Assembly: GCF_035594765.1 (NCBI RefSeq)
Contig: NC_085847.1
Span: forward strand, 6,510,392-6,574,000
Origin: Anolis carolinensis
Taxonomy: Eukaryota
Direction: 5' to 3'
DNA: 63,609 bases
A model generated the notes under the pieces. The model was given only the letters and a program-made list of their open reading frames with translations, did not search any database and was not told where the DNA came from. Each line of letters opens with the position of its first letter. Position 1 is the stretch's first letter. The position numbers were made by a program, and so were the translations under genes. Shown here one piece after another: positions 8,462-51,438 of this stretch.

Positions 8462-8757
8462 ATGGCGGCCCGCCGGATCCTGTTCTCTCTCCTGGTGGCC
8501 CTCTGCGCTTACCATTTCTACCGCGAGAAGCCCTTCTCCGAAGGTATGCCCATGCCCTGCTGTGGCTCCCGTTCTCCTAGGTCAGGAACGGGAGCGTGAT
8601 TTGGTCCTCTTCCACATCTACAGACATGGTGCGCGGGAAACGCATCCTGGTGACGGGTTCAAGCATGGGGATCGGGGAGCAAATTGCCTACGAATTGGCA
8701 CGGATGGGGGCCCACGTGATGCTGACGGCCCGAAGGGAGAAGCAACTCCAGGAGGTG

Positions 8758-8802
<45 letters not shown>

Positions 8803-8871
8803 TTATTATTATGTATTTATATGTTGTACGCCACTTTGAATCCCACCCATGGGAGAAAAGCGGGATAGAAA

Positions 8872-8931
<60 letters not shown>

Positions 8932-8998
8932 TATTTATATGTTGTACGCCACTTTGAATCCCACCCATGGGAGAAAAGCGGGATAGAAATGAATATTG

Positions 8999-9042
<44 letters not shown>

Positions 9043-9305
9043 GTATTTATATGTTGTACGCCACTTTGAATCCCACCCATGGGAGAAAAGCGGGATAGAA
9101 ATGAATATTTATTATCATTATTATTATCATCATTATTATTATGTATTTATATGTTGTACGCCACTTTGAATCCCACCCATGGGAGAAAAGCGGGATAGAA
9201 ATGAATATTGATTATTACTATTATTATTATTATTATTATTATGTATTTATATGTTGTACGCCACTTTGAATCCCACCCATGGGAGAAAAGCGGGATAGAA
9301 ATGAA

Positions 9306-9357
<52 letters not shown>

Positions 9358-9420
9358 GTATTTATATGTTGTACGCCACTTTGAATTCCACCCATGGGAG
9401 AAAAGCGGGATAAAAATGAA

Positions 9421-9466
<46 letters not shown>

Positions 9467-9513
9467 GTATTTGTATGTTGTGCGCCACTTTGAATCCCAC
9501 CCATGGGAGAATA

Positions 9514-9578
<65 letters not shown>

Positions 9579-11914
9579 GCATTTCTAATACCACTTTTCT
9601 CACCCCTGGGGGGACTCAAACATAATAAATGGCAAAATTCAATGCCTCACATACGTATAGAAAAATATATCACATATTTAAATGTTGGAGGAGCTAGGCA
9701 TTCCTAGAGAAGGCTTCTCTCTGTGGATCTCTTTGGGATATATATATACAGGATATACCTGGAGGTCTTTTGGGATCTCCCCCTTTATTTGTCTCCCCGT
9801 TTTTTTTCTAGGTGGTCCAAAAGTGTCTCGATTTGGGCGCCAGCTCTGCTCAGTTCGTCGCGGCGGACATGAGCAATATGACGGAAGCCCAGAGAGTGAT
9901 CAAGGAAACCAAGGACGCAATGGGTAAAGCGCCAACCTTGCCCCACGCCCCACACCCAGACGCGACCCTCTAGCCTGGCAGTTTGCTTTTGCCCAAATGT
10001 ACTGGTGACAAATCAAGGGTGGCTTTGGGGCTGATGTCCTGCTCTTGGGCTGCCCTGAGTGCCTCTTGTGCCCTTTTCTCGCCGGCCAGGCGGCCTGGAC
10101 CACCTGATCTTGAACCACGTGGGCAAAACCTCTCTGTTTGGCCCCTTCCAATGGGACCTGGAGCCTGTGATCAAGACCATGACGGTCAACTTCTTCAGCT
10201 ACGTCCAGCTCACCCTTTCGGCCCGGGACATGTTGCGGGAGTCGCAGGGGAGCATCGTCGTCGTCTCTTCCGTGGCCGGTAGGAAAAAGCTCCTCCAGCC
10301 CGTTAAACGGGGGGCTCGATCCCAACATAATCGGGATGGAGAGAAGGAAGTCCCATCACAGGGATGGCAAGCCGGAGAAGGTTCCTTAGTCAAGTAGATC
10401 TAGAATACATCCTGCCACGGCTACCATGGTCACTAAGGACCTTATCACATCAACCGTTTATATCAGGATGCATCCTGTCTTTTTGGGGACTAGATACATT
10501 CTGTCACACCTCATTAGGATGATGTTTACAATTAGAATCCCCTGTGCAACGTTTTGCGGACAGATTCTGACAGATTCGTGAGGGAACATCATGTGACAGA
10601 ACCTGTTCGGAATCATGTCCAGAGTCTCAGAAATGGCGTACATCCCAATGTGATAAGATCCTAGACCTCTCTCTAGGAGTTGCACTGATTCCTCGATTCT
10701 CAGACACAATCCAAACCATTGATGGTCCCCAATGCCAACTGAGAACTGCTCCATGGAGGAACAGGACACATTGAGGTGGGCTCTCCATCTCCGGAGGTCT
10801 TTGAGTCGAGGTGGGGTGGGCACCTCGCTTGGGTGCTTCAGTTGTGCACTTTGGCCAAGTGGGTGGTTGGACTAGAGCAGTGGTTCCCAAACTTATTTGG
10901 CCTGCCGCCCCCTTTCCAGAAAAAATATGACTCAGCGGCCCCTGGAAAAGAGGGCGTGGCTTAGAGGGGTGGGCGTGGCTCCTGTTCAAGGGGTGGGGCT
11001 GAGCCTCTCCCCAGTCCAAGATGCAGGGAGGGGGAGGTGGGCGGGGCCACAAATGGGCAGCCAGGACTGGGAGTTCTGAGCTCTGAGGCAGGGCTGAGCT
11101 TCTATCAGGACACAGGGGGCGGGGCTAGTGGAGGGGGCGGGGCCTCTTCCCAAGTGCCTGACGGGACTGAACCTCTCTACCACACCCCCGTGTTCTAACA
11201 AGCGCCTCAGGGGAGGATGCAGAGACTCTTGGGAAGAGGCCCCGCCCCTGCCCCTAGCCCCGCCCTTTAGTCCTAAAAGGCCTCTCAGGAGAAATAGAGG
11301 CTCAGCCCTGTCTCGGGCTGTTGAAAGGAGGCCCCGCCCCTCCCCTGGCCCCGCCCCGCTGGATCGCTGCAGTGCCCACCAGGGGGCGGTAGCGCCCACT
11401 TTGGGAATCACTGGACTAGACGTTCCAAAGCAGCCAATTCTGCAAAATCCACGTGGCATCCTCTCTGTCCTAGGCCGTGTCCCGTCCCCGTTCTCCGTCC
11501 CGTACGTGGCGAGTAAATTTGCGCTGGAGGGTTTCTACAGCAGCCTGCGCTCCGAGCTCCGGCTCCTGAATGCCGAGCTGCCCATCACCGTGGCGGTTTT
11601 GGGGTACATCGACACAGGTAAGACCGAGGCCAAAGCGCCCACCTTGCAACAGCACCCAGAGCTGTCCTCACCTCAGCCTGCCTGCCTTCTTCCCTCCAGA
11701 CACGGCTGTGAACTGCCTGAAGGGCAAAATGTTGGGGTCGCCGAGTCCGAAAGCGGAATGCGCCCGGGCCATTGTGAAGGGCGGCATGCTGAGAGAGCGG
11801 GAGGTTTTCTATCCTTACTGGTCCGTCAGACCCATCATCTTCCTCCGGGATTGGATGCCCGAACTCGTGGACTATCTCGTCAGCAGAGCCTACCTGGTGG
11901 AGAATATCGCCTAG
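8462..11914 (+). CDS. 11beta-hydroxysteroid dehydrogenase 1-like SDR (HSD11B1/HSD11B1L family paralog); exons 8462-8543, 8624-8754, 9812-9923, 10090-10278, 11474-11617, 11700-11914 (290 aa)
   Basis: N-terminal signal anchor MAARRILFSLLVALCAYHFY; Rossmann motif TGSSMGIG; TARR (basic, NADP(H)-type); GGLDHLILNH; catalytic SS...YVASK; VLGYIDT. Exon sizes 82/131/112/189/144 follow the HSD11B1 pattern as I recall it. All introns are GT-AG and in frame (873 nt). Confidence 0.92.
8757..9575. repeat. Composite VNTR: about 7 copies of a ~65 bp LINE-tail-like unit separated by (ATT)n/(AAT)n
   Basis: atgtatttatatgttgtacgccactttgaatcccacccatgggagaaaagcgggatagaaatgaat starts at ~8811, 8929, 9041, 9141, 9241, 9356 and (partial) 9465. 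Confidence 0.92.
10878..11413. mobile_element. Non-autonomous hAT MITE (536 bp), GC-box-rich, with an internal inverted repeat
   Basis: TIRs CAGTGGTTCCCAAA and TTTGGGAATCACTG; TSD GACTAGAG (10870-10877) / GACTAGAC (11414-11421). Confidence 0.88.
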
Positions 11915-15098: not shown

Positions 15099-15148
<50 letters not shown>

Positions 15149-15332
15149 GGACCCAAAGACACAGTATGACACAGCAAACAAGATATATATGCTGGATTTC
15201 ATACCACAAAATCACAAGTCAAACACTTCCCTATTATTATTATTATTATTGACACAAAGACACAGTATGACACACCAAACGAGATATATATGCTGGATTT
15301 CATATCACAAAATCACAAGTCAAACACTTCCC

Positions 15333-15375
<43 letters not shown>

Positions 15376-32600: not shown

Positions 32601-35600
32601 CATAAAACCTGCGCCAGGAAGGCTTCCTCCTTCCTGCCCTCCCACAATCCAACAGAGAGAAGGTGGCAGGGCAAAGGGGGGCAAGGGAGCTCCTCTGCCA
32701 GCCTTACCCAACATGCCGATCCCAAGCATGAAGGCGTCCATCCCGTAAGGCATCACCCGGGACCGCCCTCTCGCCGAGCCAGTGGGGGACATCACTTCCT
32801 TTGGCTGAGCCTTTTTACATTCCACCTGGCACCGGAGGCAAAAAGAGTCCGTTCTCAGCATCCGGACAAAGGGCCCCAGACAGACCAGTAAGAGACATTG
32901 GTCTGATAATAAGCCACACATTTTTGAGAAAGTGGCATGTGACGACAGTGGTCAATAAATAAAGTCTGGAGCCCCACTGGCTTTCCCCCTCGCCACCCCG
33001 TCCCAGCCCTCACCATTTTGTTGTTGATCTCATGGAAGTGGATCTCGCAAACCTTCTCCACAATGTCCTCACTCTCAAAGGTGACAAATCCAAACCCTAA
33101 AAGAAAGAAAGAGAGAGACTCGAGGTTGTTAAGGCAAAGCTCAGAAAGAATCCAGGCAGCAAAGCCACACAGACTCTGGCAGAATGGCGCCTAGACACTC
33201 GCACAGGAGCGGCCTCTTTCTCCGCAGAAGCCTATCGAGGATTAGGATGCTTCCCCTCCCCTCTGTAGCCAAACTCCCCAAATGGGACTCTGAGAGAAAG
33301 TGGCCTGGGAGCAGAGTCCGCCCTCTGAGCTGGGCAGAGGCAAGGAGGAGAGGCAGCTTTCATGTCGGCTTCTCCCAGGCTCAAATTTCCCTGGTAAGAC
33401 AGACACGGCCTCGGAGCTGTCAGGAAAAAGCTGCCCTCCCATCATCATCGGAAGCAGGCAGACAAAAGCCTTCTGTGCTGGGGCAGAGGGGACGCAGGTA
33501 AAAGGACACAGCCGATGAAGGAATGAGGGCTGGTGCCGAGAAATAAAGGGGAGACGCGACCCAAGTAAGCCACAGTGGCACAGGGTTCCCACAGAATGTC
33601 CTCCATAGGCACGTGTCATGCGTCCTGGAGTTGGGCCTCACCTCTGTGTCTGTTAGTCGTCTTGTCAAACATGAGCATGGCATCGTCCACCTGGAGGAGA
33701 CAAAAGAGGTGAGCAGTTGGGGAGAAGCAGCATCGCATTTGGGGACGCGGTGAAAGGGGCACCCACAAATCACTTGGCCCTCCTTCACTGATGGGGATGG
33801 AGGGACATTATCAACAGGCAGCCAGCTACCAAGCTGTTTTAATGAGATGGCATATTCTTATGTGGAAGAGGGGGACTAGCCAGGTGCCAAGAGGTGACTC
33901 CAATCGTTGGCTCTCCAACCAGCCTGGCCTACCAAATGTTGCTGAAGATCGGAACTTAACCAAGGCCACCACTCAACAAGAATGGAAAATGGTGGTGGCC
34001 ATGTCTTGCCACCAGCTGCCACTGCTATACAGGTGATGGGGTGTTGATGCTTTGCCTCCAGAGAAAAGGCTTTGGCCCAAGTCTCTGATTTGCGTTCTTG
34101 TTATGGGCTTTCCCATTGACTCCACGTAATGGCAACCTTGCCCCTGTCTCCCTCTCAGGCTGAAAGTGCCTGACTTTGCCCAAGGTCACCCAGTGGGTTT
34201 CATGGCTGAGCAAGAATTTGGTTTCCCAAAGTCCTCTTCCAATCCCTGGGTACATATGGACCATCACTTATACTAGTGGTAAGTTACAGTTTAGGAATGT
34301 GATCCCTTGCTAAGCCACACAGGAGGGCAATCGTACCATAGCCGGAAATCTGGAGGTGGGGTAAGAATCTCCTCGGCAGGGGAACACGGTGTGCCCATTG
34401 TTTTGGCATGCCCAATTATGGAGGAACAATTTTGGTAGCCTCACCTAATGGGCCCCCAACCCATCAAGTTTGCCATGATCGGGAAGGATGGTTGAAAAGC
34501 CTTTCTTAGGCATGATTTCAGTACTCACCTAACATGTGTATGTCCCAAAAACTGACCCCATTCAGCAAAGAGGTGGCTTTGGGAGAGATCCAAGATTAAA
34601 TGCTGGGGCAACAGAAAGCGGCAATGATGAGGCCAGCAGCATTGGGTCTAGCTTGCTGGGCTTCTTACTACAAACCAGTTGCCCCACAGATGGTGATGTG
34701 CAAAGAAGGTGAAAGTGGATCTCTCTGGGACCCAGCCACGTCATTCCCTTGTGTACCTTGCACGGAAACACACAGAGACTGGCCTCCCTTAGTGACGGCA
34801 AGCCGACAGGTCAGGGCTGGAGGGGGGAGAGCGGGGTGCAGCACACAATGAGCTTTCTGTCTTCAGGTCAGAGTTGGTGTCAATTGGCAGGCCTGGCCAA
34901 ACCAAGGCTTTGAGCAGAGGAAGCCAAGCGGATTGCCCCATCTCCCAACAGCCGTTCGAGGTGGAAATGGCCTGCAGCAGGACCGGGACTTTGACTAGCA
35001 GAGGGTACCTAATGTCCTAGCCATTAAAAGGCCTCAGCCAGCACTTCCCTGGTACCCCAGATCCCAGCTTACTAAGAGCCTGGGGTTGTCTCACTTGCGT
35101 CCCACAATTTCTATAATATTGGTGGTCTTGGACAGAATGCACCTCATGCCATAAATGTATCAGGTGTCCTTAGTCAAATCGATATTATATGAGTTACCAA
35201 CATGATGTGATGCAACCTCTTTAGAAAACACCAATATGTGTGCGCATCAGCAGTCAATGTGCATGGCTGACAATCCCTTGGGCAACCACAATGCACAAAA
35301 ACAACGCCCAGAACCAAGGCACTAATCTGTGTACTGTAATGTGCAATGGTTCCATGTGTGTGCCTCCATTTATGACGAATGCACACTATCCAAAAAAAAG
35401 AAACCACTCTCCATGCCTAATGCCATGATTCCAATCCTATCAGATCTATGGAATTGTCCTTCTGTCCTCACATTTCTAGCCTTCCAGGGAGGGAAGAACC
35501 GAAAATTATTAAAACCTGGAGCTCTTCTGTTTGATAGGTGAGAATTCCCTGGTTTACTGCACTTGGGCCTTTGCTTGCACTGTCTCTCCAAAGGTTCAAC

Positions 35601-38600
35601 TGAACTGTTAGACAAGCTGAGGCTGCCCATGGACACTTGTGCAGGAAGGGAATGTGCATCCAACACCTTCTTATGAGGAGCTGAATCAAATGTAATGTCT
35701 AAATTACAAACCAATATTGTAGGATTTCTCACAAGGAAAGAAAATGCAACCGGTTTACAGGAGAAGGACTTGGTGGGGGCCAAAGGATCAGAAAGGAGGT
35801 GGCCCCTGTACTAAAGGAGTGGCCAATTGCTGGAGAATTTCAGAGTGGCCAAAAAGCACCATCAGGCAGAGCTGAGCTACCATGGGAATGCACTTTCTGC
35901 AATTACGTTCTGAAGGCTCTTATTAGGGAAACCACAAGGCTTTGAGGCTGCTGGCCCAGGAGGTTGAAGGCCTCGGGGAAAGGAGGCTCACAAGAGTCCC
36001 TGCTAAGCAACGGCCGGGCCTGGCGCAAGAAGCCAGGGGGAAATGGTGGACGGGGCCTCTCTGGGAACAGCCAGACCGCCAGCTGGCACGGTCCCCTGAG
36101 CTCTCCACACACGTCCCCAACCTCCAGAATCCTCCAGGAGAAAATGTGTGTCCTCAATAGGCGCCCGTGGCCATGGAAACCCAGGGCAGGGGAGGTGGGA
36201 TAAGCGGTCCCGGTCAGCCGTCAAGTTCAGGCAGCCGAGGGCTAAGCGTGAGTGGCAGCCCTTGGCGGGCGGCTATTGTTGGGGCCGCCCGTTGGGTGCC
36301 GTGTGGGGCCGAGCCCCTGCTGCCGGGTTGGGGGGGGGGGGCAAGAGACCCCCTGCCACTCCCCCGGCTGGCCCTCGGGTGCCTTTCTTCTCAAGAGGCA
36401 GCCCCGGCTTTGCCAACGCCCAAGCCAGGCCTGAACAAAAGAGGCTGCTGGGGATGGCTTCTCTTGGGGCCGGGTTGCTGTGGCAACCCTGGCCCCTCCA
36501 ATCCCCGGCGCTGGCGCAGATTAGCGTGAGCACTAATGCGCTCTCGGGCAAAAACGGACACACCAAACAGGCACCCGGCAGGGGTGAGGCCTCCTCTCAG
36601 GAGGGGACGAGGGCCACCATTTCCGCGTCTCTGTCTCCGTCCTCCTTCTCCCAGAGGCCGACAAAATGATGGAGAAAAATCAGAGAGGGGCCAGGGCCTC
36701 CCCAGGGGTCTTGCCTGGGCTGCAGCGCAGTCACAAAAGGCCCAATTAAGTCCCTGCGCATCCACTTCGATAAGCTACAGGCAAAGGGAGGGAAGGGAAG
36801 ACAAGAGGAAACATGCTTCCTTTCAATAGCCCAAGGGCCTCTCCTACCACCCAGTTCGAGTGCTGCACTTCCACTTTAACTGCTACAGCTTCATTTTGCA
36901 GAATCCCTGGATTTGTAGTTAAGGAAGGCTCTAGCGCTCTCTGGCTCAGATGTCCAGATACCCTTCTCGAAATAGTAAACAGCAAGCCAAAATACCCTGA
37001 AGGCACCGATCCTGCCTGAACTCAGAAGCTAAACAAGTATCTGCATGGGCTACAAATCCCACCTGGTCTTGCAAGTTAAGCAGGGGCAGCCCTGGTTAGG
37101 ACTTGGATGGGGACCACCAATGGATACTAGGTGCTGTAGGCTCTACGTCTGGGGAAGGCACTGGCAAAGCCACCTCTGAGGATTCATGGCCTAAAAAGGC
37201 CCCCTGAAGTTCATGGGGTCACCACACATTCAAAGCATACACACACATTGCCAATTTCTGGATTTCACTGCCAAGACAGCTAAAGTGGAATCACAGTGCT
37301 ATCATTACATAGGGTGGAAGATGCCCAAAACAGTTGGAGATTCAATGGAACAAGCAGCAGAGCCCAAACTTCCGTCAACTAATGCTTGCTGGCCTTCCAC
37401 ATTTTGGGGACTTCCATCCACCTTGCATCTCAATCTCCCCACTATCCAGGTTCTCAAAAGCTCTGTAGGGTCCAAGATCACCTGTCCTTGCTGTGAATTC
37501 CAGTTCCTTGCTTTACAAAACCCACTCCTCGGCCAAGTTCTAGCCAGGCCTCCAACTGCTCATCTCTCAAACCACGAGGAGCACAACATGATCAAATCCA
37601 GCTACAATCCCAAAACCCTTCATGTCATCCTTCTACCCTCAATGAAACATTGATCACTCAGTGAAAGCAAAGAGCAGCTCATGATCTACATCCTTCTAAC
37701 CCAGGATCTACTGGCTTCAATGCCAGCGAGGTGATTCTGCTCCGTGTTTTCATACAAACTCCAGGAGGCTGAAGCTAACCTGGAGATAGGACTCAGCACC
37801 TTGGACAGCTCAAATGGAGCCACCACAGCCAGTATTGTGGGACAACAACATGGCCACTCCAATGTTCAGACCCCCAAGAACCCAATAAATGGATTGAGAA
37901 AGCCCAAACATGGAAGCCTCATACACAGCTACTCAAAATACCAGTTGGGTGACCCAGAAAGCCCCTCGCCAGGTTGAAAGGAGGAACAAACTTTGTCATC
38001 TAATCAAGCAGAGCCAGGCTGCCGCCTGCTGACGTCTGCAGCTAGCATGTTGTATAGTTATTAGATGATGCAACTTGGGGGAGACTGTTTACTAACAGTG
38101 ACTCGACTCTTCCATATAATCTATCTCGGCCACGCTTTGCCACTGGCAGCCAAAAGCCTTCCTGAAGGAACCTGCCACTTTGGTGCGTGGGCACAAGGCT
38201 CTTCCTTGAGCTCTAGGTTTCGAGACAGCTGGTATAAATAGCAGACTCCCCCACAATCACTTTGCCTTTCAGTCTTCAGACATCCTATACGGAGGTGGAC
38301 TCTGACCCAGAGGAAAATGCGTTCTGGATTTTATTTTTAAATAAAGGCAGGAGGAAAGAGGGAGGTCTCACCACCAACCCCAGAAGAGGCCTAGGACTGG
38401 CAAAGGTGCCCGGCCTGCGTCTGGACCACAGGGTCAGGACTGGCACAAATGGAAACCTCCTCCTCTGTTCAAAAATCCAGAAACCATTCAAGCTCAGGAC
38501 CAGAACAGGCACATGGACGTACAATCATCCTAAGGGTCATTTTTCAGTAAAAAGAAACTGTCTTGGGACTTTAGGTACAGACTGTTTTGTTGCCAAAAGG

Positions 38601-41600
38601 GCCAGCAAGTCAACCAGGTCTCCAACAAAGGAGATGTGGATGATCTCATGCTCATAATGGACTGTACTGACCCCCATGTCAACTGCTGAATGATAAGCAG
38701 AGGGTGGGAAATTGAATTAGTCTCTTGATAGGACTTGATGGGCCCCACCAGACCCCTTGTCTTGCTGTATTTTGGAGTCTGATGCCACATGGACTTGGGA
38801 AATGGTGAGACAAGATGGGCTTTGGCTTCCCCTCCAGTGCCATGTGTCTTGCCCAGCCCCATTCACACACAAAGGTTCCACAGGCCAAGAAAGAGTTCCT
38901 CAGAGGAAATCCGGTCGCATCCTGACACCATCTGCGGGGACGAGTTCCGGAATCTGTTCGCTGGAGCATGTTGAGGAGAGGGACATGCACAGACCATTTC
39001 TCTTTTTTTTTTCACTAACCCTACTTAAATATTCTACGTTCATTCGCTAGGCGCTACGATCTGGAGATATGCAAATGGAAAACGGCTGCTAAACACATTG
39101 CTACCGCGATTGTCTACACTGTGACCTTCAAAACTACAAACAGAGAATTAACACAACAGTGAAGAGAAAGGGGGGAAGAGAAAAATAAAAACACTAAACA
39201 GCTGAAATGTATATATAAATATTTTTGGTCCTAAATCTAGGTCTAGCTATACAGAGAATGATCATCTATCTACTAAAAAGTCTTTGGGCACACTACATGA
39301 GTAGAAAAAGAAAAAAGGGGGTGAGGCTGGTTGTGTGATTTCTCAAGCCGGAAGACAGAAGAGGAGGTGGGGGAACTACACATTTGGAGTTGTACCTTGG
39401 ATCTAGGAAAGGCTGGGACACGAACTTCGTGCCCCCTTCACTTGGCCACTAGTGATCAAAGAGCATCCATGACCACATAGGAAGGGGCTCTGTGGAAGCA
39501 ACGTCATAGAAGAGAGCTTAGGAACATGGCACAGCGAGGCTGGTACAGAGTGAGGGGCTGTTCAGGTGGGGCGGAAAGGGACCAAACGGCCGCACGTCTT
39601 CAAATGGCATTCGACAGGACAGAACGGGCCTTCATTTCCTGGGCAGACCACTAGTGAAGCAAACAGCACTTGGCACATGCAGCCGGCCTGGGGCAAATGC
39701 ATGTTTCTTTGCCCAGGGGACGCTTCTGAGAAATCGTGGCACTCCTCTCCAAGTAAAGAAGGGTCTCAAATGCTACACCAGACCATACACAATGCTTCCT
39801 CCATGCTGTTTGGATAGACCAGCTTGGGCAGTTATCCAAATGTGGTGACAGTGTGAACAGACAGGCAGGCAGGAGCAAGAAGGAGCCAAGTGGATGCCAA
39901 GAAGGCCATGCTGTCTGGGAGACCAGCCCCGTTCGAACTCCCCCCCCCCCCCCCAACAAAAACCTCTCTGTCTTCCACATTTGGGCCCCAAGATCCTTCC
40001 AGCACTTGCTTAGAAGTAAGCTCCATTGATTCAAAGGGGATTATTTCCAAGCAAGCACACGGGGGATTATAGGTTTTCCCAAAGCTTGGGGGATGGGGGT
40101 GATGAAGTTGAGAGGAGGCAACGTAAGGGCAAAGAGACCCACCCTTACCACTGTTATAATTATTCTCATTTCCCTGTCTCAAATCACTGAAGGATTCCAG
40201 CAGTATGTTCTTCTCTCTCAGAGCCCCTTTCACACTGCACAAGGGACTAGATTGTGGAAACCCCACACCCCACCCCATGCAAACCTGGAAGAGAATTTCC
40301 AGGACAGGGCCACTCAAGACTTCCCATTAGAGACATATCCCAATGCCTTAGCATCAGGGAAGGCAAAGAGTCCGAAAGAGAAAATTTAGAATGGAGAAGG
40401 GGTTAAGGCAAACCGAAGGCTTAGGAATGGCTTGCTCTTGGGCCAGGATGTCTAATATAGTTCCAGATCTCGTGGCTTAAAGCTCTGACAAACCCGCCTT
40501 AAATCCAGAAGCTATTAGGGTCGCCTCTTGCGGACAAGGGTTGCACAAAAAACACTGAGCCCTGGTTACATCAGGTCTGGTGTGTTTATGCTACATCCAA
40601 AGGGCACGTGGTTCCTTTCCGTCAGCAAAACCCACACATCTTTGAACATATTGTCTTGTGCTCATAACAACAGAGAGCCATACGAACCTTTCTATCCATT
40701 TATACTGGTAGTAGATTGGCTTTATACCTGACTTTTGCAGGCCAGAACTAGACTTCCCAGATTTCCTTGGTAAAGAGGAGGTTCGTGCCTTTCAGTTGAG
40801 ATATGCTGAAAGGAAGGCTGTAGTACAGAGTTCGGCCCAGTGCCAGGCACTTACCTTCCCAAACTGCTCAAAGTACTGTTTCACGTCCTCCACTGTAGTG
40901 TTCACCGACAGGCCGCCCACAAAAATCTTCTTAGTCCGCGTCACCATCTAGAAAAGAGGACAAGGAGGCAGCAAAGACCCCTGGAAACACTCCTTTTGGG
41001 AACTACAACTCTCAGAATCCACCCAGCTTGGCTACCGCTCCCCAAAGCTGAATTCCAAGCTCTAGGACAGGGATGTACAGTTCACTTTGTCCTGAACTCA
41101 GGTGCCAAAAAATGGCTCATCCCCATAGGCTTCTCATCCCCACTTGAGCCTACAAGGGTTTATGGGCAATATTATTTGTCCTTGTGCAAAATGACTAATG
41201 CCTTTTAGTCCCCACAAATACACAGCTTCTTCGGGGGATCCATTTGTACAAAGAACCAGCCAGCTTCTTCCGGGGGACTAACATGCCCAGAATGTCTCAT
41301 TTAGTTGAAAGTCCCAAAAAGATTTTTTCCCCTTCCAGATGTTGGAAAATGTGTCTCAAACAGAAGATGATCTTGGCTGCCTGATTCATGATGCCGGCCG
41401 TGTTAAAACTATGTCCAGTAGAGGTTAGCTGCCTTCTAATGTCTGCTATTCCTGTGATTCAGAACAAGTAGGTGGAGATTATACTCCTCTTTTCCAATTT
41501 CAAACTGGGCTCAAATGATTGGCACAGAGTTTTTTTTTAAGTGCATGGAAACAGAAACATGAATCCGTCTTTTTTCCAAGGGAGCTGACGGCAAGATAGG

Positions 41601-43906
41601 AAGTGGCCCAAGTGCTGAATCAGGTTGTTGGTGTCTTTGGTTCCAGACTGTCTATGTCAGATTCTTTTATCTGAGTGTCCTCTAAAAATGTGTGCCTACA
41701 ATGCCCATCTGGCCCAACTAGCACGGCCCACGGGCATGAGAGTGGCATCGCCAAAGGTGTTTGTCCACCCTTCCAGGTAAGTTCAAGAATCGGATCTTGA
41801 AGCGGGTGGGCACTCCCTACCAGACAAGGGCAATTAAGGGGATTTTGGAAGTTGCCATCCAAAAAGAAGGAACTTTCCTGAGGTTCTTCCCTCCACACAG
41901 CCCGAATGAAACCCTGTCCACACCAGGAGAAGTACAGCCGCAGTCCCAGATTGGTTTTGCAAAACCTCCTCAGCCTTCCCTTCCTCCACCTTCAGCCCTA
42001 AGGGACCAGCTGATCCCAAGAAGGACCCTCGGGTGCCCTCTGAATCGGCTCTCCCTTCAGCTGCAACCAGAAACACATGCTCCTAATTACCCCAAGGAGC
42101 GCTGCGGCTAATCCACCACAATTCTCGGGCTTGGAAAACAGCCCGTCCCAAGGCTAAAGCCCCTTCTGTCACCCAACTGCTTAATGGAATTAACCCAATT
42201 CCAACCACGTGCTCCCAGCGCCAAGCACTTGGGATACCTGGGCACCAACTGGCTCAATCACCCAGGCCACCCTCTTCCAGGCCCTGGCTTTGCCCACTGT
42301 CTTTAGAGTTCAAGAGAGGACAGGGCTCCGACCCCTTCCGGAGTTTCTGACGGTGTTTTGGGCCCACCAAAGATAAGCAAAGGAAGACTCGTGCAATGTA
42401 CGCTGCCCTAGTGTCATTCTCGCGTCCATATCTCAACCCATTCTTCTTCGTCAAGGGTTAAGACTGGAAGTGGGCTTTGGTAAGCCAGCGTGGACCATGG
42501 GGGCGGCAAGTGACTCCCTCCTAGCCTGAAATTGCACACCCATGTGGAAAACTTCATTGTGCCTTTTTGGTTCAAGCAATTTAGACTCCCCACAGCTTGA
42601 TCTCAAAGGTATCCCTGCCCGAACTTATGACTACACAGGAAAACAGATGCAGACGTGAAACAATTGCACAAAGACACCCCAAGGCAAGGATGTATAGTAT
42701 GCAAGATGTAATAAGCTCTGCTGTCAACCCATCGTTCTTTTCAGACAGCCCCAGGGCAGGGATCTTAGTGTTCTGGCAAAACAACAGAACCTCACACCCA
42801 CTGAGTTGAAGTTGCAACCACTAAATTTCTACCCCATTTGCCCACCATCGATAATCACTGCGAGGTCCTTAAAGCATGGTGCCCAAGCTGATGCCCTCCC
42901 CGTGGTCTGGATTAAGTCCTCATCCTCCCCTTGTGGCCCATTCCAATTGCCATAGAATTGTGTTTTCGTGACACCACTTCTTGTGTTTTTCCACCCTATC
43001 TGCTTTTCCTCCGTGCTGGGAGCAACCTTATGCCCCCCGTTTTGGAAGAAAAGGCCAGATGCAAAGAAAAGAAGAAACTGAAATGACCACTGCATTTGGA
43101 ACTGTTCAAATGTCAAACGGCGGGATTCTGGCCACTTTGTGCCAGAGTCGTTTTGCGTTTTGCAACTGAAGCATTTAAGCACTTATCTACCGAGCCAGAC
43201 AAATGAAATGGCTTAATGCTTCTGGACTGGCAAAGGAGAACGGCATAACCATTTAACAATCATGTATCAGTTGTACGGTGAATGTCTCCAAAAACTAAAT
43301 GGGACCAACTCGAAAACAGTATGTACCTTGGGCTGGGCTCTGCGAGGAAATGCCACCTTTGGGTCAATCTGAAAGAGAAAAAGGGAAAGGTTACAATGGT
43401 ACCAAACTCAGTAATAACACCTATGGATGGGAGACATAGAGTCAGACAACACACCAGAAGATCCTACGAGCAAATAGTCAAGTAATGGTTTGAGCACTGG
43501 ACTCAGACTCTCGAGAAGAAGGCTGGCAACCTCACTCAGCCATGGAAACCTATTAGGCGACCTTGGGCAAGTCACGTTCTCTCAGCCTCAGAGGAAGGCC
43601 ATGGCAAACCCCATGATAGGGTCGCCATAATTCAGAAATGACTTGAAGACAGCCAAGAAGCATGAAGGACATTCATGGGCCTTCCTGGATGCCACAAACT
43701 GTCTCTACTAGAACAGAGGTCCCAGTCCACCAAGCACTCCTCCCATACAAAGGTCACTGAAATGAACTGGGACTGCATGAGGCTGTTCTGACATAGCTCC
43801 AGTTCACAACAGTTTCATATAGACTCTGTCTGTTGGCTTGTTTAGCTTCAAGGAGCAACCAAAGCTTCAACCAAGGCACCCAAAAGAGAAAACAACCTTC
43901 TCCAAC

Positions 43907-43954
<48 letters not shown>

Positions 43955-46900
43955 CCCTCTAAATGTACCACAACCTCAGCTCCATACATGCTAGGCCACG
44001 AGCCCCCCACCAAGGATAATGGAAGCTCTATACTACAAATCCACAATGACTCAAAAGACATGGGATCCTGGGATTTGTAGAGAAGGTTCCTCAAAGTGCT
44101 CACCAAAATACAAGTCCCAGAATCCCACAGGTGGCAGTGGAAGTGGTATCAAAGTCAACAGCCGGGGGGGGGGGGGGTGTAAAAATGTGCCACGTTCCTT
44201 TGAACCATGATCAGATATGGGATGGGGAAGGAAATGCAACCGTCAGAGTAATGCCGAGGGAGGTGAGAAGCTTTGGCGGCAGGCCAGTGATGCCAGGGCT
44301 GTGACAGATGTGCCAGCCAAGCGCTCTGCCACCCTAGCAATCCTGCCAGTGAAGGCATGCTGGCAGAAGGGCGAACACGGGAGCAGTCAGGCCACACTGT
44401 AGAAAGGGCACAAATTCTGCTCCCTCCATGGAAAGATCTCCCAGTTGCCAAATGCCAAGCATGTTATGCGGTGTCTTCATTTGCAGGCACAACCCAATAA
44501 AGAAACTGGCTGAAACACATCATGAGATGAAGGCCTTCCCAAAGAGGAAGGCTTTAGCCCATGCCGCCAAATGAGGATGCCAAGCAGATCCACATTTGGA
44601 AACTCAACACTAGGACTTGATGGGCCCCAAAAGACTCATTTTGAAAGTCCACAAGAAAGACAAATGTCTTCCTTTGCTTGCTTGCCTCATTGAGAAGTCC
44701 CAAATGGTACAGTGCTCCTGCCCCTGGAGGTTCCATTTCATAAAAAAAAACCTCTCCATCCGCTAATCCTTTAACAAACCATCCAGACAACCACCAAAAC
44801 CACATCCTGAAGCAATCTGGGCAAGGAAGAACTATCCACTGTATGCCTTTGATGCTAAAGCGTCAAGATTTCCAGACAAGGGGGATTTCCCTCACTTCAA
44901 TACTAGTAATTGCAGGTTCTCTCTCTTTTGTGCCCAGTCATAATTCTTCCAAAGGGAAGAATACCTTCCTCTCTCTTCAACACAAGGGGGTCAGCAAAGG
45001 CAAGCCCCCCAGATCTCTCAGGACAGTGACTCCAGGAATTTTTCCCTAGGGTTTATACTGGCAAGGATTGATGGGAGCTGCAGTCCAGCAACATTGGTGA
45101 AAGGCCAGAATCCACCAAAAGGTCTGCATTCTCAGAACGGCAGGAGGTCCCATGGGAGATAGCGAGCCCAAACAATTGTCCCCTGTATTTCCCAGCTCTC
45201 TGCCAGCCACATTCAGCTCCTGCCAAGATGAGATTCCCATCTTTCAGCCAAAGTTAACCCAGGCCTTCCTCTCTCAGCACAATTCGCCAGGAAGAAGGGG
45301 TCCATCTGCTGTGGACAGGCAGGCAGCCCTTATAAGAACAGTCTTCCCCAGAGGGAGCAACTGTTGCAAGCAAACTACAATCCCAGGGTCCATGGGAGGG
45401 TTGCGGTCCAAAAGAGTATCAGGCTGGGCAAACTGTGACCAGGTCACAGAGATGCCTGCCCTTCGGCAAGCTGTGCTCCTCTCTCCTCAGTGCCTCACCT
45501 GTCGGAAAGATGGATAGAGGCAATAAAACTGATCTACCGTGCAAGGTTGAGATCACATGCACCTGAAGCGCTGTCAACACTCGGAAGGCTACATCAACGC
45601 ATGATGATGAGTCGCCTGATAAATAATCATCGACACCTTTAAGAACCTCTTTGCTTTCATTTCCCATCATGAGGACTAGTGACCTTACAGCAAAAAGCAA
45701 GGGCACCTTAAGCCCAGTGTTCACCTGAGCCCCATGCCATGACCATTCAGGCCCACAAAGCTACATATTGCTCCCTTCTAAATCCAAAATGCCCCCTTTG
45801 CCCCACTTCTCCGGCCTCCGGAGAAAAACAAAAACCTCCAGAATCCAGATGCAACCAATGCATTGTCGAGTCAAGCCACAGTAGCCTACAGTCCCATAAA
45901 CAACTGTTGAGAAAAAGCACTTTATTTCCAGGTTCAAGCCTTTGCCATCAGTCCATCCTACCTCACAGGGCTGTTGCAAATACAAAGTGGGCAGAGAAGA
46001 AGAGGAAGAGATTGGGATATGCTGCCTTGAGCTCATAGGAATAACAAATACATCAATATATTTGGCCTTCTTGAGAGCATAGCACTACAACACAGCAGAT
46101 AAGACCCTCTTCGGGTTTGCCAGGGGACAGCTCCCATCTGCTCAAAAGAGGGACTAGTTCTAAAAGATCACGAACACTTAAAAAGAAAATCATGCCTCCC
46201 CAAAATGTTGCCAGGCCCAGATCTGACCCAGCAGAAGACAACGTTGGCAACGAGAATTTAAAAACTGATAAGAAGTTCTCATACTTCGAGTCCGCACAAA
46301 GGATCACCAAAGCCTAAGATATGCCAGTCAGAGGAAGATGAGACATGAAAATTTACAACCCAGGGGGAAGTGCAAAATTTTTAAAATTAAAAAAAATCTC
46401 CAGTCAAAAGAATGAAGGCAAAAGGTTGAAGTTCTTCCCCTACTTCCTTGGAAACTCTCCCAAGCACCTGCTTGTGAATAATTTTATACATTTCTGGAAA
46501 TGTGCTGCCATTTGAATGAGGGTTTTGTATTTAGCAGGTACAGGGATTTGCCTAGGAAAAAGGCAACTCGGCTTGTATGAGTTTTGATAGGAATTGTGTG
46601 GTGAACTATAGCTCCCACAACCCTTCTGCTTCCCCTTATGACTAACCATGCCACTTGGAGGAGTCTGGGAGTTGTAGTTCCCACCAGCCCATGGGTGTGC
46701 ATCATTGCCAAAAGGTGCTTCCTCGCAGCCAAGCAATGCTTCTCACGGAAGGCCATTAGCTCGTGTTTGGAAAGCAGCTCAAGTCCATTTTCTGGTGACT
46801 TGTTTAGGACATAATGAGCATTTTATTCTATTGGCTTCACACGGCTGTTGGCTGGTCCGCGTTGCCAAGCAGATGATTTAGAAAGGCGGCAGCAGAGCAA

Positions 46901-49900
46901 TGACAAGACAAAGTGGCCGGTGTCGCGAGTGTCCCTCAAATGTGAGCTTTTATGCTGTGGCCATGGATCCCTAAGGGTCTGTGAAGTGCAAGCAAAATAA
47001 GTCTGTCCCTCCTTCAGCATCCTTCCTGTTACTCTGAAACCTGTATAGAAGTCCTCATTTTCCCCTGGGGTCCACAGCTTTTATCAGACTCTCAGGGGAC
47101 TCCAGAAAGATTCCCTATAGGCACCTGATCCCATCTGATCTTGGAGGCTAAGTAGGGTCAGCCCTGGTTTGGACTAGGGTGGGAAACTGCCACCGAATCC
47201 CAAGTAATATTTTAGAGGAAGGCACAGGCAAAGCCATTGCATCCTCAGCAAGAACCCCTGGACTGTTTGGAGGGGAGAAGACCTCGACTTTGGCAGGACA
47301 GTTGCTACTCATTTTGCCTCCTTTCCCTATTAATTCCCACATAACTTATTCCCAAGTAAGCACATATGAGATAGGCAGTGGGCAACTTATTTTTTATTAT
47401 AATAACTCAATAACTCCCTCTGCCTGACTTGTCCTTGACCACTGAAGACACTTATAGTCAATAATACCAGAAGAGGCTCCACTACGTAAGATTTTGGTGG
47501 TCCACTTTGACCACAATAATTTCAAAAACATCTTAAGGGATGCTTAAGCCATTCCTTCCCTGGTTCCTAAGTCCAAAGTCCAGCATTGACAAATTATAGG
47601 GTTGCGTTGGATCTTAAAACATATCAAGCCGGTCAAGGGATGGGAACAAGGGAATATCCAGGAAGACAGATATATTTTAACACTCCAAACAAAAAGAGTG
47701 TCCAAGGTGCCCCCACATGCTTCCCACTTTGTTCCCTCGGTGCAGACGCATCAGAGACTTTCAATAGCCAGGGCGACCCCCGTGGTGTTATCTATAGCCT
47801 GAGACCTCATCTGTTTCCTTTCCGTTCATTTGAGCCTCCCCCTTTAAAAGCCAAGAGAGAAAAAGATCGCCAGGCAAGGAGAATGGGGGCCAGCCACCCT
47901 GAATTACATCTCATTGGTGACCCCAAAAACATGCCCATGGATTAGGGCCACCGATATGCCCACCTCTTGCTCCTTTAATTGAGGGGAGAGGACCCAACAA
48001 CCCCTTCCTATAGAGATCAGTCACAGATTTAGCTGAACCAGCACCAGAGGGAAGTTTAGAGAAGATGAAGTTGTCTCCTTTCCCCATAAACTTCTCTTCC
48101 CAGCTACAGTATAATCCTAAACAAGATTCTCAGAAGGCAAAGTCTCACCCATGGCAGTAGGATTTACTCCCAAGTGACTTATGATGGCAACTCCCATCTC
48201 GTATAGCAAAAATATACATATATAAAGCTTTAAGAGTCCAGCACCTTTCTCAAAGCAAGACCGTTCCCAGTTCCTTCATCAGATGCCAAAAACTTCAGGC
48301 CATAAAAACTAAGGTGGGAAAAGGATTGAGTTTTTTTATTTCTCTGCTTCCGAAAATCCTTGGGGCATCTGCACTGAGCAAGTTTGGGATAAGTTTAAGG
48401 GGAACTTTTTAAGGAAGGACCTCATGAAGCAAAACGCATTTTCTAGTCAAATCCCAGAGGAAAGATGTTCCCTTTTGTTCGGCTTTTGCATTTGATCAAA
48501 ACCCCACTTCAGTTCCATGCAGTGACACAGAAGCTCCTTCAAAGTTCTCTCCCACTAGCCTCAGTGAAAATAAAAGACGGCAATACATAGCTTCCCAACT
48601 TTTTTGTGCATCAAAACTTTTTGGCAGGCTGTTCCTTGGACTTTTCATTCATTCATAGTTGAACGGGGGAAAAAAACAACACATAATAATGCCCCCTTGT
48701 TTGCTCTGCACAAATCTAACCTTGAGCCCGGTATCTCAAGTCCCAAGATTTCTAACCCAAGGGAAAGCGGTTAAAAAGTATCCGCTAGAGATACTCCGCA
48801 GCCCAGTGCCATGTCTCTGCCAGGACACATACTTTCACCCTCTGTACATGCAAGCACCAACACTGCAATGCTAGATATACTACAGGACCAATTGCCATCT
48901 CCATCATGGAACACACAAGTCCGTCTGGAGAGATATGGACTCCAAACGGCTCTCAAACACAGTGCCTTATTCCCGTATCCGAACTGATCTTGCTCTGGAC
49001 ACCTGTTAGCTGTCAAGATGTTGAGGAAAACCCCAACAATGGGATGCCAGCTCAAATCATTTCAACCCAAACAAAGAATTCAAATTAAATACAGGAAAGG
49101 GGGATCGGATGAAAATCAAGTTGCCTGTCAACTTATGCCAACTCCATGGCTTTCAGAGCAGGAAGTTTGAAAGTTTGCCCTCCTCCAAATCGAGCCTTGG
49201 GAAGATTATTACTCAACAACATCTATTAGTATTATTCTTAAAAGCTTTTGGGTCGCTTGTCACCCCACCAGAATTCCCAACTGAGAGAAAACTTTCTTTT
49301 AAAGACTGTTTATATATAAAAAGGTTTCCATCTCAGGCTCTAAAGGTAGTTGAGCAAGCCACCAGTTGGACCAGCTTGAGTCGCCCGTTATTAGCCCACC
49401 AAGTGCCCACCATATGGTGAGAAAGCTGAATGGAACAGCTGCACTGGTTGTTGATCACTTGAGCTTTCCCCCCTCCTCAAGGCACGCTAGAGAGGCCCAG
49501 CCCCACAAACGTGCCCCTTTTTCCCTGGTCCCAAGGTGGGTTGGTCCCTAAGCAAGGACAGAGGTCTAATAAGGTGGAGGTGGTAGTGGCACAGGTGCCC
49601 CAATGTCAGGAAAAGCAAGTCAACAAGGCACACACTCAATAGTTTCTCCTTTGCTTCCTTCAAGAGAGGATGGGGAAAGCACTGACAGGCAGGAGACACA
49701 GCCGACAGAGGCAGGGATGCATTGAGACCACAAAATTGCCACTTTCATAATAGAGCTGAACCAAACCCTCAGACCTTCTGGATGGAGAAACCAAACCCAA
49801 CAAAGATCTCTTGGTGCTCCCAAAGCGCCAGCTACAAACAGGGACCCAAAACTTTGCAGCCCACAAAATCATTTCATCCAAAGTGATATGAAGAACATGC

Positions 49901-51438
49901 TGGGGTGCTTTGCCTGCTCAATGAGATCCAGACAACCTCCTTCTCAAGAACCTGTGGGCACCAGGAGAGCTCTCCCAGCATCTGAGCTTCCAAGGGGTCC
50001 CTTCTGAGGTGTCAGAAGGCCTACAGGCTCCCCAATTGGGACCTCCTTGATGGACCAAATCCTGCCCTCTTCTTCCTCTGACAAGGACAACAGAGGGGTG
50101 GGTGAGAGAACATGCCAAAACCTTGAGTCTCCTTCAAGATGCTTGGCCCCAAGCGCAAAGGGACAAGCTCAGAAGCCAAGGGGGGAAAGGGAGACACAGA
50201 AACAGACATCTCGGCTTCCTTTCAGCACCACACTCGCCCACAACTCAGTCGCAATCCGCATCTCTCTTGCCGTGCCACAAAAGCAAAACTTTGACCAAGC
50301 CGGTGGCCTTTCCTTCACCCCGTATGGAGCCCAAAGGGGCCGGCAACCCTTCCAACAAAAGCCCAGCGCCCGGGATCGATCTGGGCCGCGCTTGCCCATC
50401 GCCAGCGCTGTCTAATTGCAAATTAATCCCAGACCCGGCGGAAGGAAAGCCCCAAAGCCAGAAAAGCAGACTGTTTGGGGGGATGGGGGGGAGCGAGCAT
50501 CAGATCAGTGGACCCCACGACCCCTGCGACCCCACTCACCGTCTTGGAGTCCAGCTCGTGGCGGGACTGGGCCAGGACCTTGTCCACGCCGGCTTGGTCC
50601 ACGAAGGTGACAAAACCGAAGCCCCTGCAGCCACGGATGCCGCCGCCGGCAAAAGGGGAGGAAGCGGAAAAGTTGGTCAGGAAAGGGGGGCAGCGGGTTG
50701 GGAGGGAGGGGGGTCCAAGAGGAGGCACCCACTCAGGCTCCCACTCACCTGGAGCGCTTTGTCAGCGGGTCCCTCATGACCAGGCACTCCTTGACCTCGC
50801 CAAACTGGCCAAAGTACTCCCGCAGGCCTTCTGCAAAAGGACGGGAGGGGGGGAGCACAACAAAAGGAGGAGAGGGGCTGAGGAGGCCGGCTGGGCCCAA
50901 GATGGATGGAGCGGGCAGGCCTCTCCAAAATGGCTAGGGAGGGAGGGAGGGAGGGAGGGCGAGGAGGGCCTTCCTTCTCTCTCTCTCTCTCTCCCTCTCC
51001 CTCCTCCTCCCTCCGCAGCCAGGCCTGGAGCCCCTCGCCCGCCTTCCCTCCTCCTCGACAAAGGCACCTTTCAGCCCTCAGCATCCCCGGAGGCCAGGCC
51101 CGGCCAAGGGCCCCACTTGGGAAACTTTTGGGGGCCCTGGCGGGGGAGCCATCCCCTCCGAGAGCCCCCCTCCCCGTCTCCCGCTTCCTCACCTTGCGTG
51201 GTCTGCCAGCTCAAGCCTCCGATGAACATTTTGCTACAAGAGAAGAGAGAGAGAGAGAGAGAAAGGAGAGGCGATTAGAGGCGGGAAGGCGAGCGGGGAT
51301 CGGCCATGTTGGCGGGCGCCTGCCTGCCTCTCTGCCTGCCTGCCTGGCTCTCTGCTTCTCCTCAGGGCGGCCGTACCAAGGGTCGTGAGGGGAATCCGGC
51401 GGGGAGGCCAGGCCGGGCTGGGCGGCGTCGGGCTCCAT
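28043..51438 (-). CDS. MSI1: RNA-binding protein Musashi-1; coding exons 51438-51377, 51233-51193, 50830-50749, 50624-50540, 43368-43327, 40947-40855, 33690-33642, 33096-33014, 32825-32708, 31783-31703, 29895-29839, 28610-28542, 28401-28247, 28084-28043 (352 aa)
   Basis: [34 protein letters not shown]; RRM1 RGFGFVTF; [14 protein letters not shown]; RRM2 KIFVGGLS...RGFGFVTFE; [12 protein letters not shown]; poly-Ala; C-terminus [13 protein letters not shown]. All junctions are GT-AG and in frame (1059 nt). Confidence 0.98.
35990..36560. promoter_or_regulatory. Candidate MSI1 intron-6 neural enhancer (RFX X-boxes plus SOX sites)
   Basis: GTGGCCATGGAAAC at 36167-36180, GTTGCTGTGGCAAC at 36474-36487, TGCTAAGCAAC at ~36001, ATTGTT at ~36275 and AACAAAAG at ~36434, all in a CpG-enriched patch. 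Confidence 0.6.
36990..37230 (+). mobile_element. 5S-rRNA-derived SINE with a partly duplicated head
   Basis: agttaagcaggggcagccctggttaggacttggatggggaccacc...ggtgctgtaggc is a diverged 5S sequence followed by a non-5S tail. Confidence 0.7.
43484..43650 (+). mobile_element. tRNA-derived (MIR/Squam-like) SINE
   Basis: tggtttgagcactggact...gaccttgggcaagtcac..ctctcagcctcagaggaagg; similar copies at 58480-58610 and (reverse) 34150-34240. Confidence 0.6.
47120..47250 (+). mobile_element. 5S-rRNA-derived SINE fragment
   Basis: gatcccatctgatcttggaggctaagtagggtcagccctggtttggact resembles the 5S internal region. Confidence 0.6.

What the first reader, a model, noticed from the sequence alone, without database searches (positions are those of the whole stretch)
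8462..11914. A possible third 11beta-HSD1-family gene at a locus where humans have none
Seen: an intact six-exon SDR with a full catalytic set (Ser, YVASK), NADP(H)-type TARR and an N-terminal anchor preceded by RR. Knowledge: human HSD11B1 (LAMB3/G0S2 region) and HSD11B1L (SAFB/RPL36 region) lie elsewhere. Inference: the protein mixes HSD11B1-like traits (dibasic anchor, GKRILVTG..GIG, LG.IDT) with an HSD11B1L-like substrate loop (GRVPSPFSVPY). It may be a separate paralog lost in mammals, with a different steroid, oxysterol or bile-acid substrate.
Basis: partly seen in the sequence, partly recalled or inferred. Interest (0 to 1): 0.7.

Follow-up and report, generated by a model that had tools for sequence, protein, structure and literature searches.

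The report
Third 11beta-HSD1-family gene mammals lack
This green anole gene is an intact, spliced, third member of the 11beta-hydroxysteroid dehydrogenase 1 family, separate from the two human-type genes and shared with a shark, amphibians, other reptiles and ostrich-like birds; it was likely lost in mammals and most birds, and it is predicted to be a membrane-anchored enzyme that reduces a steroid or bile-salt ketone.

Summary
Confirmed. The six exons give a 290-aa short-chain dehydrogenase identical to an Anolis carolinensis RefSeq protein named 'HSD11B1-like protein B', and RNA-type contigs carry the spliced form. The genome also holds HSD11B1 (LAMB3-G0S2 locus) and HSD11B1L (MICOS13-SAFB locus), so this is not a translocation. 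The protein falls in its own clade (99/99) with a shark, caecilians, frogs, reptiles and palaeognath birds. That clade includes Xenopus hsd11b1l.2 and Swiss-Prot's 'HSD11B1L A/B', which are therefore misfiled. None of 112 named members is mammalian, neognath or ray-finned fish; this is absence from protein lists, not a genome test. It shares all five introns with HSD11B1, not HSD11B1L. The substrate is untested. Its range roughly matches C27 bile-acid users (PMC2886068), so a 7-oxo sterol or bile-salt reductase is my lead (about 0.35); snakes and anoles do not fit. Ten literature searches found no description of the clade, but Baker 2010 could not be read. The scan had not noted it before.

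The parts
8462..8543 (+). Coding exon 1: start codon, basic residue(s), N-terminal membrane helix
   Evidence: helix 2-20 in model; joint to exon 2 in 3 of 4 runs
8624..8754 (+). Coding exon 2: glycine-rich cofactor motif and TARR (NADP(H)-type Arg64)
   Evidence: adh_short E 1.1e-8; R64 in 69 of 69
9812..9923 (+). Coding exon 3, with the clade-typical N-glycosylation sequon at N93 (9875)
   Evidence: sequon at this place in 58 of 69 clade members, 1 of 58 HSD11B1, not among the top HSD11B1L sites
10090..10278 (+). Coding exon 4: LNH motif, one-residue loop insertion typical of the clade, catalytic Ser169
11474..11617 (+). Coding exon 5: substrate loop, catalytic Tyr182 and Lys186, LGYIDT
11700..11914 (+). 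Coding exon 6 to the stop codon; C-terminal helices
11915..12121 (+). 3' untranslated part covered by the spliced contig (true end not shown)
   Evidence: run X14 record 1
5036..6995 (+). Upstream neighbour SIRT4 (Sir2 family exons), context only
   Evidence: SIR2 E 7e-29 and 3.4e-13; 71% match to the SIRT4 part of alligator P0019
20754..21086 (-). Frame holding a phospholipase A2 exon (PLA2G1B by position; name recalled), context only
   Evidence: Phospholip_A2_1 E 1.3e-12
32855..51675 (-). RRM gene read as MSI1 (name recalled from the translated exons), context only
   Evidence: RRM_1 fragments, weak, E 0.05

Best explanation
This is an intact, spliced third gene of the 11beta-HSD1 family, in its own clade that likely dates to early jawed vertebrates, and it is predicted to encode an endoplasmic-reticulum-anchored, likely lumen-facing NADPH-dependent reductase whose most likely substrate is a 7-oxo sterol or bile-salt intermediate. 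Shown: gene, splicing, three separate loci in one genome, separate clade, intact Ser-Tyr-Lys site, 11beta-HSD1 fold. Inferred: an N-terminal helix after a basic residue anchors it; a conserved glycosylation sequon points to a luminal catalytic domain; Arg64 selects NADP(H); luminal NADPH from hexose-6-phosphate dehydrogenase would drive hydride transfer to a ring ketone with Tyr182 as acid, as in 11beta-HSD1. Loss in mammals, neognath birds and ray-finned fish is inferred from protein lists. My odds: separate ancient paralog 0.93; ER NADP(H) steroid/sterol oxidoreductase 0.8; 7-oxo sterol or bile-salt substrate as main job 0.35.
For: Three full loci in the genome. C4 order is Laminin_N (204,743,570, -), G0S2 (204,828,511), HSD11B1 (204,862,499-204,879,107). 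C9 has the gene identical to RefSeq HSD11B1L P0107, with QIL1/MICOS13 6 kb away and two divergent SAP-domain genes 57 kb away. The three anole proteins are only 46-48% identical (137/289, 132/288, 140/290). Careful tree of 46 hand-picked rows: third clade 99/99, HSD11B1 97/96, HSD11B1L 100/98, with shark basal, then amphibians, then amniotes; the 294-row FastTree gives the same three groups. AU rejects the window protein inside HSD11B1 (p 0.021) or HSD11B1L (p 0.001). All 5 intron positions and phases match HSD11B1; HSD11B1L has an extra intron and a shifted last one. S-Y-K is intact in 67 of 69 full-length members, R64 in 69 of 69, and a sequon is present in 66 of 69. Model pLDDT 93.1; the top 50 Foldseek hits are all 11beta-HSD1, TM about 0.8. 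A single-frame 6-phosphogluconolactonase domain on C17 fits an H6PD gene (inference). H6PDH supplies NADPH to 11beta-HSD1 (PMC10448579 passages). SIRT4 adjacency outside lizards is indirect: an alligator model fuses SIRT4 and this SDR, and a frog member is named 'Sirtuin 4'. [quoted passage not shown] This matches the palaeognath/neognath split in the gene's range.
Against: No enzyme assay, tissue profile or topology test exists here. The bile-salt match is imperfect and rests on about three inferred losses: snakes and many lizards use C24 acids and anoles nearly all 5alpha acids, yet they keep the gene; no member was found in salamanders, lobe-finned fish or other cartilaginous fish, although lobe-finned and cartilaginous fish use C27 bile alcohols. 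Sisterhood with HSD11B1 is favoured (SH-aLRT 96 without tunicates; 87/92 with tunicates inside the group) but not established: AU does not reject third+HSD11B1L (p 0.26) or HSD11B1+HSD11B1L (p 0.30), and shared introns could be ancestral. The pre-shark date rests on one shark protein; AU does not formally reject it as HSD11B1 (p 0.066), though it has 7 of 8 clade-diagnostic residues. Only 120 of 436, 120 of 1419 and 150 of 78,448 hits were listed, so a divergent mammalian or neognath member could be below the cut. The anole protein itself is atypical: 5 of 8 diagnostic residues.
Confidence: 0.72

Rival explanations
1. Same ancient paralog, but it is a second glucocorticoid-regenerating enzyme (11-dehydrocorticosterone to corticosterone, perhaps 11-keto androgens) that overlaps with HSD11B1.
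For: Closest solved relatives by sequence and fold are 11beta-HSD1. The best tree and the intron pattern link it to HSD11B1. The residue at the human Tyr177 position varies just as much in non-mammalian HSD11B1 (F16 S14 G11 T5 of 50) as in this clade (S28 A28 G8 of 69), so it does not exclude steroids.
Against: Species that have it also have HSD11B1 (anole; Xenopus tropicalis lists hsd11b1, hsd11b1l and hsd11b1l.2 in PMC7064643 Table S1), so long retention suggests a different job. It has a distinct Gly-Gly loop with a one-residue insertion over the pocket. The other paralog, HSD11B1L, is reported not to reduce cortisone or 11-ketotestosterone (as cited in PMC5592779 and PMC7728068).
Confidence: 0.3
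2. Same ancient paralog, working as a broad ER carbonyl reductase for dietary or xenobiotic ketones or another lipid, not a dedicated hormone or bile enzyme.
For: Pocket positions vary widely in the clade (positions 122-124, 170-171, 175-181). Lineage duplicates occur in skinks, Rhineura and a poison frog, two with the catalytic Tyr replaced.
Against: Tuatara, turtle and alligator end branches are short (about 0.09), and the anole has a single copy at the locus.
Confidence: 0.3
3. It is simply HSD11B1L (as the database names say), or a moved or recent copy of HSD11B1 or HSD11B1L.
For: RefSeq, UniRef and Swiss-Prot names say 'HSD11B1-like protein A/B'. It shares R65 and D90 with HSD11B1L rather than HSD11B1.
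Against: Both canonical loci are occupied; the intron pattern differs from HSD11B1L; AU rejects both nestings; orthologs span frogs to ostrich.
Confidence: 0.03

Closest known systems
HSD11B1 / 11beta-HSD1 (e.g. PDB 4BB5, 2BEL; anole gene on C4)
   Same: Fold (TM about 0.8), N-terminal anchor, Arg64 NADP(H) site, Ser-Tyr-Lys, all five coding introns
   Different: 47% identical in the same genome; other locus; separate clade; Ala for Cys at 212 (69 of 69 vs 0 of 58); sequon at 93; one-residue insertion in the loop after LNH; function untested
HSD11B1L / 11beta-HSD3 (anole gene on C9 = P0107)
   Same: Family, catalytic set, TARR and ADM motifs; orphan status (PMC5592779)
   Different: 46% identical; six introns against five, last one shifted; MICOS13-SAFB locus; separate clade; present in teleosts, neognaths and many mammals
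Xenopus hsd11b1l.2 and Swiss-Prot Q6P7J1 / Q7SYS6 ('HSD11B1-like protein A/B')
   Same: Orthologs: same clade, about 54-55% identical to the anole protein
   Different: Filed by name under HSD11B1L; no paper on its function or clade found in the searches

Membership tests
Classical SDR, NADP(H) type | Rossmann fold with TGxxxGxG | tested here: met
Classical SDR, NADP(H) type | Catalytic Ser-Tyr-Lys (YxxxK) with upstream Asn | tested here: met
   N142, S169, Y182, K186; triad in 67 of 69 clade members
Classical SDR, NADP(H) type | Basic residue after strand beta2 and no acidic residue (rule recalled) | tested here: met
   R64 in 69 of 69, aligned to human R66; cofactor binding itself not assayed
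11beta-HSD1 family (HSD11B1 + HSD11B1L) | Closest sequence, fold and tree relatives are 11beta-HSD1/HSD11B1L | tested here: met
11beta-HSD1 family (HSD11B1 + HSD11B1L) | N-terminal membrane anchor | tested here: met
   Hydrophobic helix 2-20 after a basic residue; predicted, not measured
11beta-HSD1 family (HSD11B1 + HSD11B1L) | Luminal orientation of the catalytic domain | tested here: inconclusive
   Sequon in 66 of 69 members, 58 at one site; indirect only
HSD11B1 ortholog | Lies beside LAMB3 and G0S2 | tested here: not met
   That locus holds another gene on C4
HSD11B1 ortholog | Nests in the HSD11B1 clade | tested here: not met
   AU p 0.021
HSD11B1 ortholog | Five coding introns at HSD11B1 positions | tested here: met
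   5 of 5 positions and phases
HSD11B1 ortholog | Reduces 11-keto glucocorticoids | not testable with these tools
   needs enzyme assay
HSD11B1L ortholog | Lies beside MICOS13 and SAFB | tested here: not met
   That locus holds P0107 on C9; RPL36 is 3.9 Mb away on the same contig
HSD11B1L ortholog | Nests in the HSD11B1L clade and shares its intron pattern | tested here: not met
   AU p 0.001; 4 of its 6 introns shared
Third clade (hsd11b1l.2 group) | Monophyly with Xenopus hsd11b1l.2 | tested here: met
   99/99, 16 of 16 rows; 103 rows at 100 in FastTree
Third clade (hsd11b1l.2 group) | Conserved position beside SIRT4 | tested here: inconclusive
   Direct in this window; indirect in alligator and one frog from fused or misnamed models; shark not testable
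Third clade (hsd11b1l.2 group) | Absent from mammal, neognath and ray-finned fish genomes | tested here: inconclusive
   0 of 112 named members; no such genome could be searched

The most novel reading that the evidence does not exclude
An unrecognised third vertebrate 11beta-HSD1 paralog is a missing enzyme of ancestral C27 bile-salt or oxysterol metabolism, lost independently in ray-finned fish, mammals and neognath birds as they moved to C24 bile acids; the palaeognath/neognath split in gene and in bile chemistry would be one event.
Probability: 0.25. Interest if true: 0.7.

Novelty: new member of a known kind. Interest (0 to 1): 0.45.

Why it matters
Comparative stress and steroid physiology in frogs and reptiles counts two 11beta-HSD1-type genes; these animals have three, and database names hide the third under HSD11B1L. 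Swiss-Prot's Xenopus 'HSD11B1L A/B' entries belong to this clade, so names transferred from them mislabel the whole group, and expression studies that say 'HSD11B1L' in frogs or reptiles may mean either gene. The clade gives a natural third point for asking how 11beta-HSD1 gained glucocorticoid activity and what orphan HSD11B1L does. Its range offers a direct test of a link to C27 bile salts, with Xenopus as a ready model. It is an ordinary enzyme fold and a known kind of event (an old paralog lost in model species), which limits the score.

Tried and rejected
Translocation and recent duplication: rejected. A further tandem copy within the window or 40 kb upstream: none found. A fourth genome hit on C4 at 80.49 Mb: a partial retrocopy of HSD11B1L, not a fourth gene. 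Motif mosaic as evidence: rejected. Resolving which two clades are sisters by AU test: not resolved. ESM Atlas: only generic SDR clusters, taxa at phylum level. Tissue of expression: no holder is on record as RNA and runs are coded, so no tissue could be assigned; run X20 showed no cover of the exons, which is no evidence either way. Letter differences in RNA-type contigs (10139, 10170, 11484, 12061, 12070) also stand in DNA-type runs, so they are alleles, not editing. PXN is not adjacent here; it lies about 0.37 Mb beyond the window end. Literature: ten searches found no paper describing this clade; 'hsd11b1l.2' gave 0 main-text hits. Baker 2010, Tsachaki 2017, a 2013 review and two Hagey 2010 papers on bird and fish/amphibian bile salts were not held, so prior mention of the frog member, most plausibly in Baker 2010, is not excluded. 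No complex prediction was run: a dimer would pass by likeness to solved 11beta-HSD1. Earlier scan notes: three unrelated, none by sequence.
Full report
Observation. The product is identical to P0001, RefSeq XP_003226050.1 of Anolis carolinensis, named 'hydroxysteroid 11-beta-dehydrogenase 1-like protein B'. So the gene is annotated already. Four of four RNA-type runs (RNA status guessed by the tool) show the joints at introns 3-5 and three of four at intron 1; one 1092-nt contig covers all six exons. Two DNA-type runs hold unspliced contigs.

Locus. The gene follows SIRT4 on the + strand and precedes a phospholipase A2 exon and an RRM gene on the - strand (the names PLA2G1B and MSI1, and that this order matches human 12q24, are recalled). 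A whole-genome search finds three multi-exon family loci. On C4 the order is Laminin_N, G0S2, then a six-exon gene at 204,862,499-204,879,107: HSD11B1 at its usual place. On C9 a seven-exon gene identical to RefSeq HSD11B1L lies 6 kb from MICOS13 and 57 kb from a divergent pair of SAP-domain genes; SAFB as human neighbour is stated in PMC5592779 (passages). The three proteins are 46-48% identical to one another. Translocation is excluded.

Gene structure. The window gene and HSD11B1 share all five intron positions and phases. HSD11B1L shares four, has one more inside exon 4, and its last intron is seven alignment columns later in another phase. Which pattern is ancestral was not tested.

Phylogeny. 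A FastTree of 294 of the 334 proteins then held (those of 240-345 aa) gave three vertebrate groups: HSD11B1 (72 rows, 99), HSD11B1L (23 rows, 99) and a third group with the window protein (103 rows, 100). A careful IQ-TREE run on 46 hand-picked rows gave 97/96, 100/98 and 99/99; inside the third group the order is shark, amphibians, amniotes, although tuatara joins turtles and archosaurs rather than squamates. On 28 of those rows (tunicates, one long outgroup and 15 redundant rows left out), AU tests reject the window protein inside HSD11B1 (p 0.021) or HSD11B1L (p 0.001). The best trees join the third group to HSD11B1 (SH-aLRT 96; 87/92 with two tunicate rows inside), but the two other pairings are not rejected (p 0.26 and 0.30). 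The one shark protein has 7 of 8 clade-diagnostic residues and the loop insertion, but placing it in HSD11B1 is not formally rejected (p 0.066). No shark, coelacanth or frog HSD11B1 was among my rows. Xenopus tropicalis hsd11b1l.2 and the X. laevis Swiss-Prot entries Q6P7J1 and Q7SYS6 belong to the third group, which explains the misleading names.

Range. Of 342 proteins scored against three clade profiles (built from the groups, so many match by construction), 117 scored best with the third group; I dropped 2 low-scoring rows (P0300 lies among invertebrate-type rows; P0189 is 842 aa and was not in the tree). Of the 115 left, 112 are named: 39 squamate, 1 tuatara, 8 turtle, 4 crocodilian, 18 palaeognath, 2 caecilian, 39 frog, 1 shark (my count; rows include isoforms). 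None is mammalian, neognath, salamander, lungfish, coelacanth or ray-finned fish, though mammalian and neognath HSD11B1 and HSD11B1L fill the same lists at lower scores. The lists were cut at 120 of 436, 120 of 1419 and 150 of 78,448 hits, and no such genome could be searched, so loss is inferred. Table S1 of PMC7064643 (supplement part 1 of 2 read) agrees: three genes in X. tropicalis (hsd11b1, hsd11b1l, hsd11b1l.2), chicken with hsd11b1a, hsd11b1b and hsd11b1l, human with two; its tree legend does not include Xenopus.

Anatomy. Among full-length rows (69 third clade, 50 non-mammalian and 8 mammalian HSD11B1, 12 HSD11B1L; 275-312 aa, starting with Met, after a 12-name exclusion list of aberrant models), the third clade keeps S169 and K186 in 69 of 69, Y182 in 67, R64 in 69, Lys or Arg at position 5 in 62, and a sequon at N93 in 58. 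It has eight near-diagnostic columns, including Gly121 in a loop with a one-residue insertion and Ala212 where the others have Cys. The model (pLDDT 93.1) matches only 11beta-HSD1 in its top 50 Foldseek hits; phmmer gives E 3e-74 to human 11beta-HSD1.

Mechanism. Shown: a complete NADP(H)-type SDR site on an 11beta-HSD1 fold with an N-terminal hydrophobic helix. Inferred: ER anchoring, luminal orientation from the conserved sequon, and net reduction driven by H6PD, whose role for 11beta-HSD1 is stated in PMC10448579 (passages) and whose gene is probably present. For the substrate I commit to a 7-oxo sterol or bile-salt intermediate at about 0.35. That mammalian 11beta-HSD1 also reduces 7-oxo sterols and bile acids is recalled, not read here. 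PMC2886068 (abstract and passages) reports C27 bile acids as common in crocodilians, turtles, varanids, amphibians and palaeognath birds and uncommon in fish and mammals, with C24 acids in ray-finned fish, most birds and most mammals. That is close to the gene's range, including the split within birds. Against it: snakes, many lizards and anoles keep the gene with other bile profiles, and no member was found in lobe-finned fish or other cartilaginous fish, which use C27 bile alcohols. Glucocorticoid regeneration (0.3) and broad carbonyl reduction (0.3) remain open. HSD11B1L is reported not to reduce cortisone (second-hand in PMC5592779 and PMC7728068, passages).

Prior knowledge. Ten searches (listings only, apart from the papers named) found no description of this clade. 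PMC2821372 (passages) treats a Xenopus 'hsd11b3' (BC106472) as HSD11B1L; I did not determine its clade, and its supplementary tree was not read. PMC10797549 (passages) and PMC3042382 (passages) added nothing on the gene. Baker 2010, the most relevant evolutionary paper, and four others were not held and may mention the frog member.

Verdict. A real, expressed, already annotated but misnamed gene that marks a third, probably gnathostome-wide 11beta-HSD1-family lineage, apparently missing from mammals, neognath birds and ray-finned fish. New member of a known kind; interest 0.45, rising to about 0.7 if the bile-salt link holds.

Noticed in passing
L024:4468-4875 (G000:C4:80,491,468-80,491,875, +): Partly processed retrocopy of HSD11B1L: exons 1-4 joined without introns (86% nucleotide identity over 423 nt), then continuing into sequence like intron 4; exons 5-7 not found in the 10 kb fetched.
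   Followed up: partly
window 14882-16864, - strand: Protein-like frames between the SDR and the phospholipase A2 exon, one with a weak DUF7179 hit (E 0.011, below cut-off); possibly exons of a small unnamed gene. Left unidentified.
   Followed up: partly
window 8755-9575 (intron 2): Array of about six copies of a roughly 60-nt unit separated by TTA/TAA microsatellite runs.
   Followed up: no
P0029/P0040, P0020/P0035, P0031/P0049, P0079/P0080/P0087: Extra copies of the third-clade gene in two skinks, Rhineura and the poison frog Dendrobates tinctorius; P0049 has Cys and P0087 Asp in place of the catalytic Tyr.
   Followed up: no
P0019, P0062, P0355: Annotation tangles with SIRT4: an alligator model fusing SIRT4 and this SDR, a frog SDR named 'Sirtuin 4', and a true turtle SIRT4 protein listed inside the turtle SDR cluster. 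May reflect read-through transcripts or merged models.
   Followed up: partly
L027:3554-5692 (+) and L027:9184-9795 (-); G000:C7:6,942,008: P2X receptor and TMEM17-type exons lie 20-27 kb upstream of the window, and paxillin lies about 0.37 Mb downstream, so local order differs from the recalled human PXN-SIRT4 adjacency.
   Followed up: no
HSD11B1 clade: Neognath HSD11B1 rows split into two groups (18 and 33 rows), matching the chicken hsd11b1a/b pair in PMC7064643 Table S1; birds that lack the third gene carry a duplicated HSD11B1, which could compensate (speculation).
   Followed up: no
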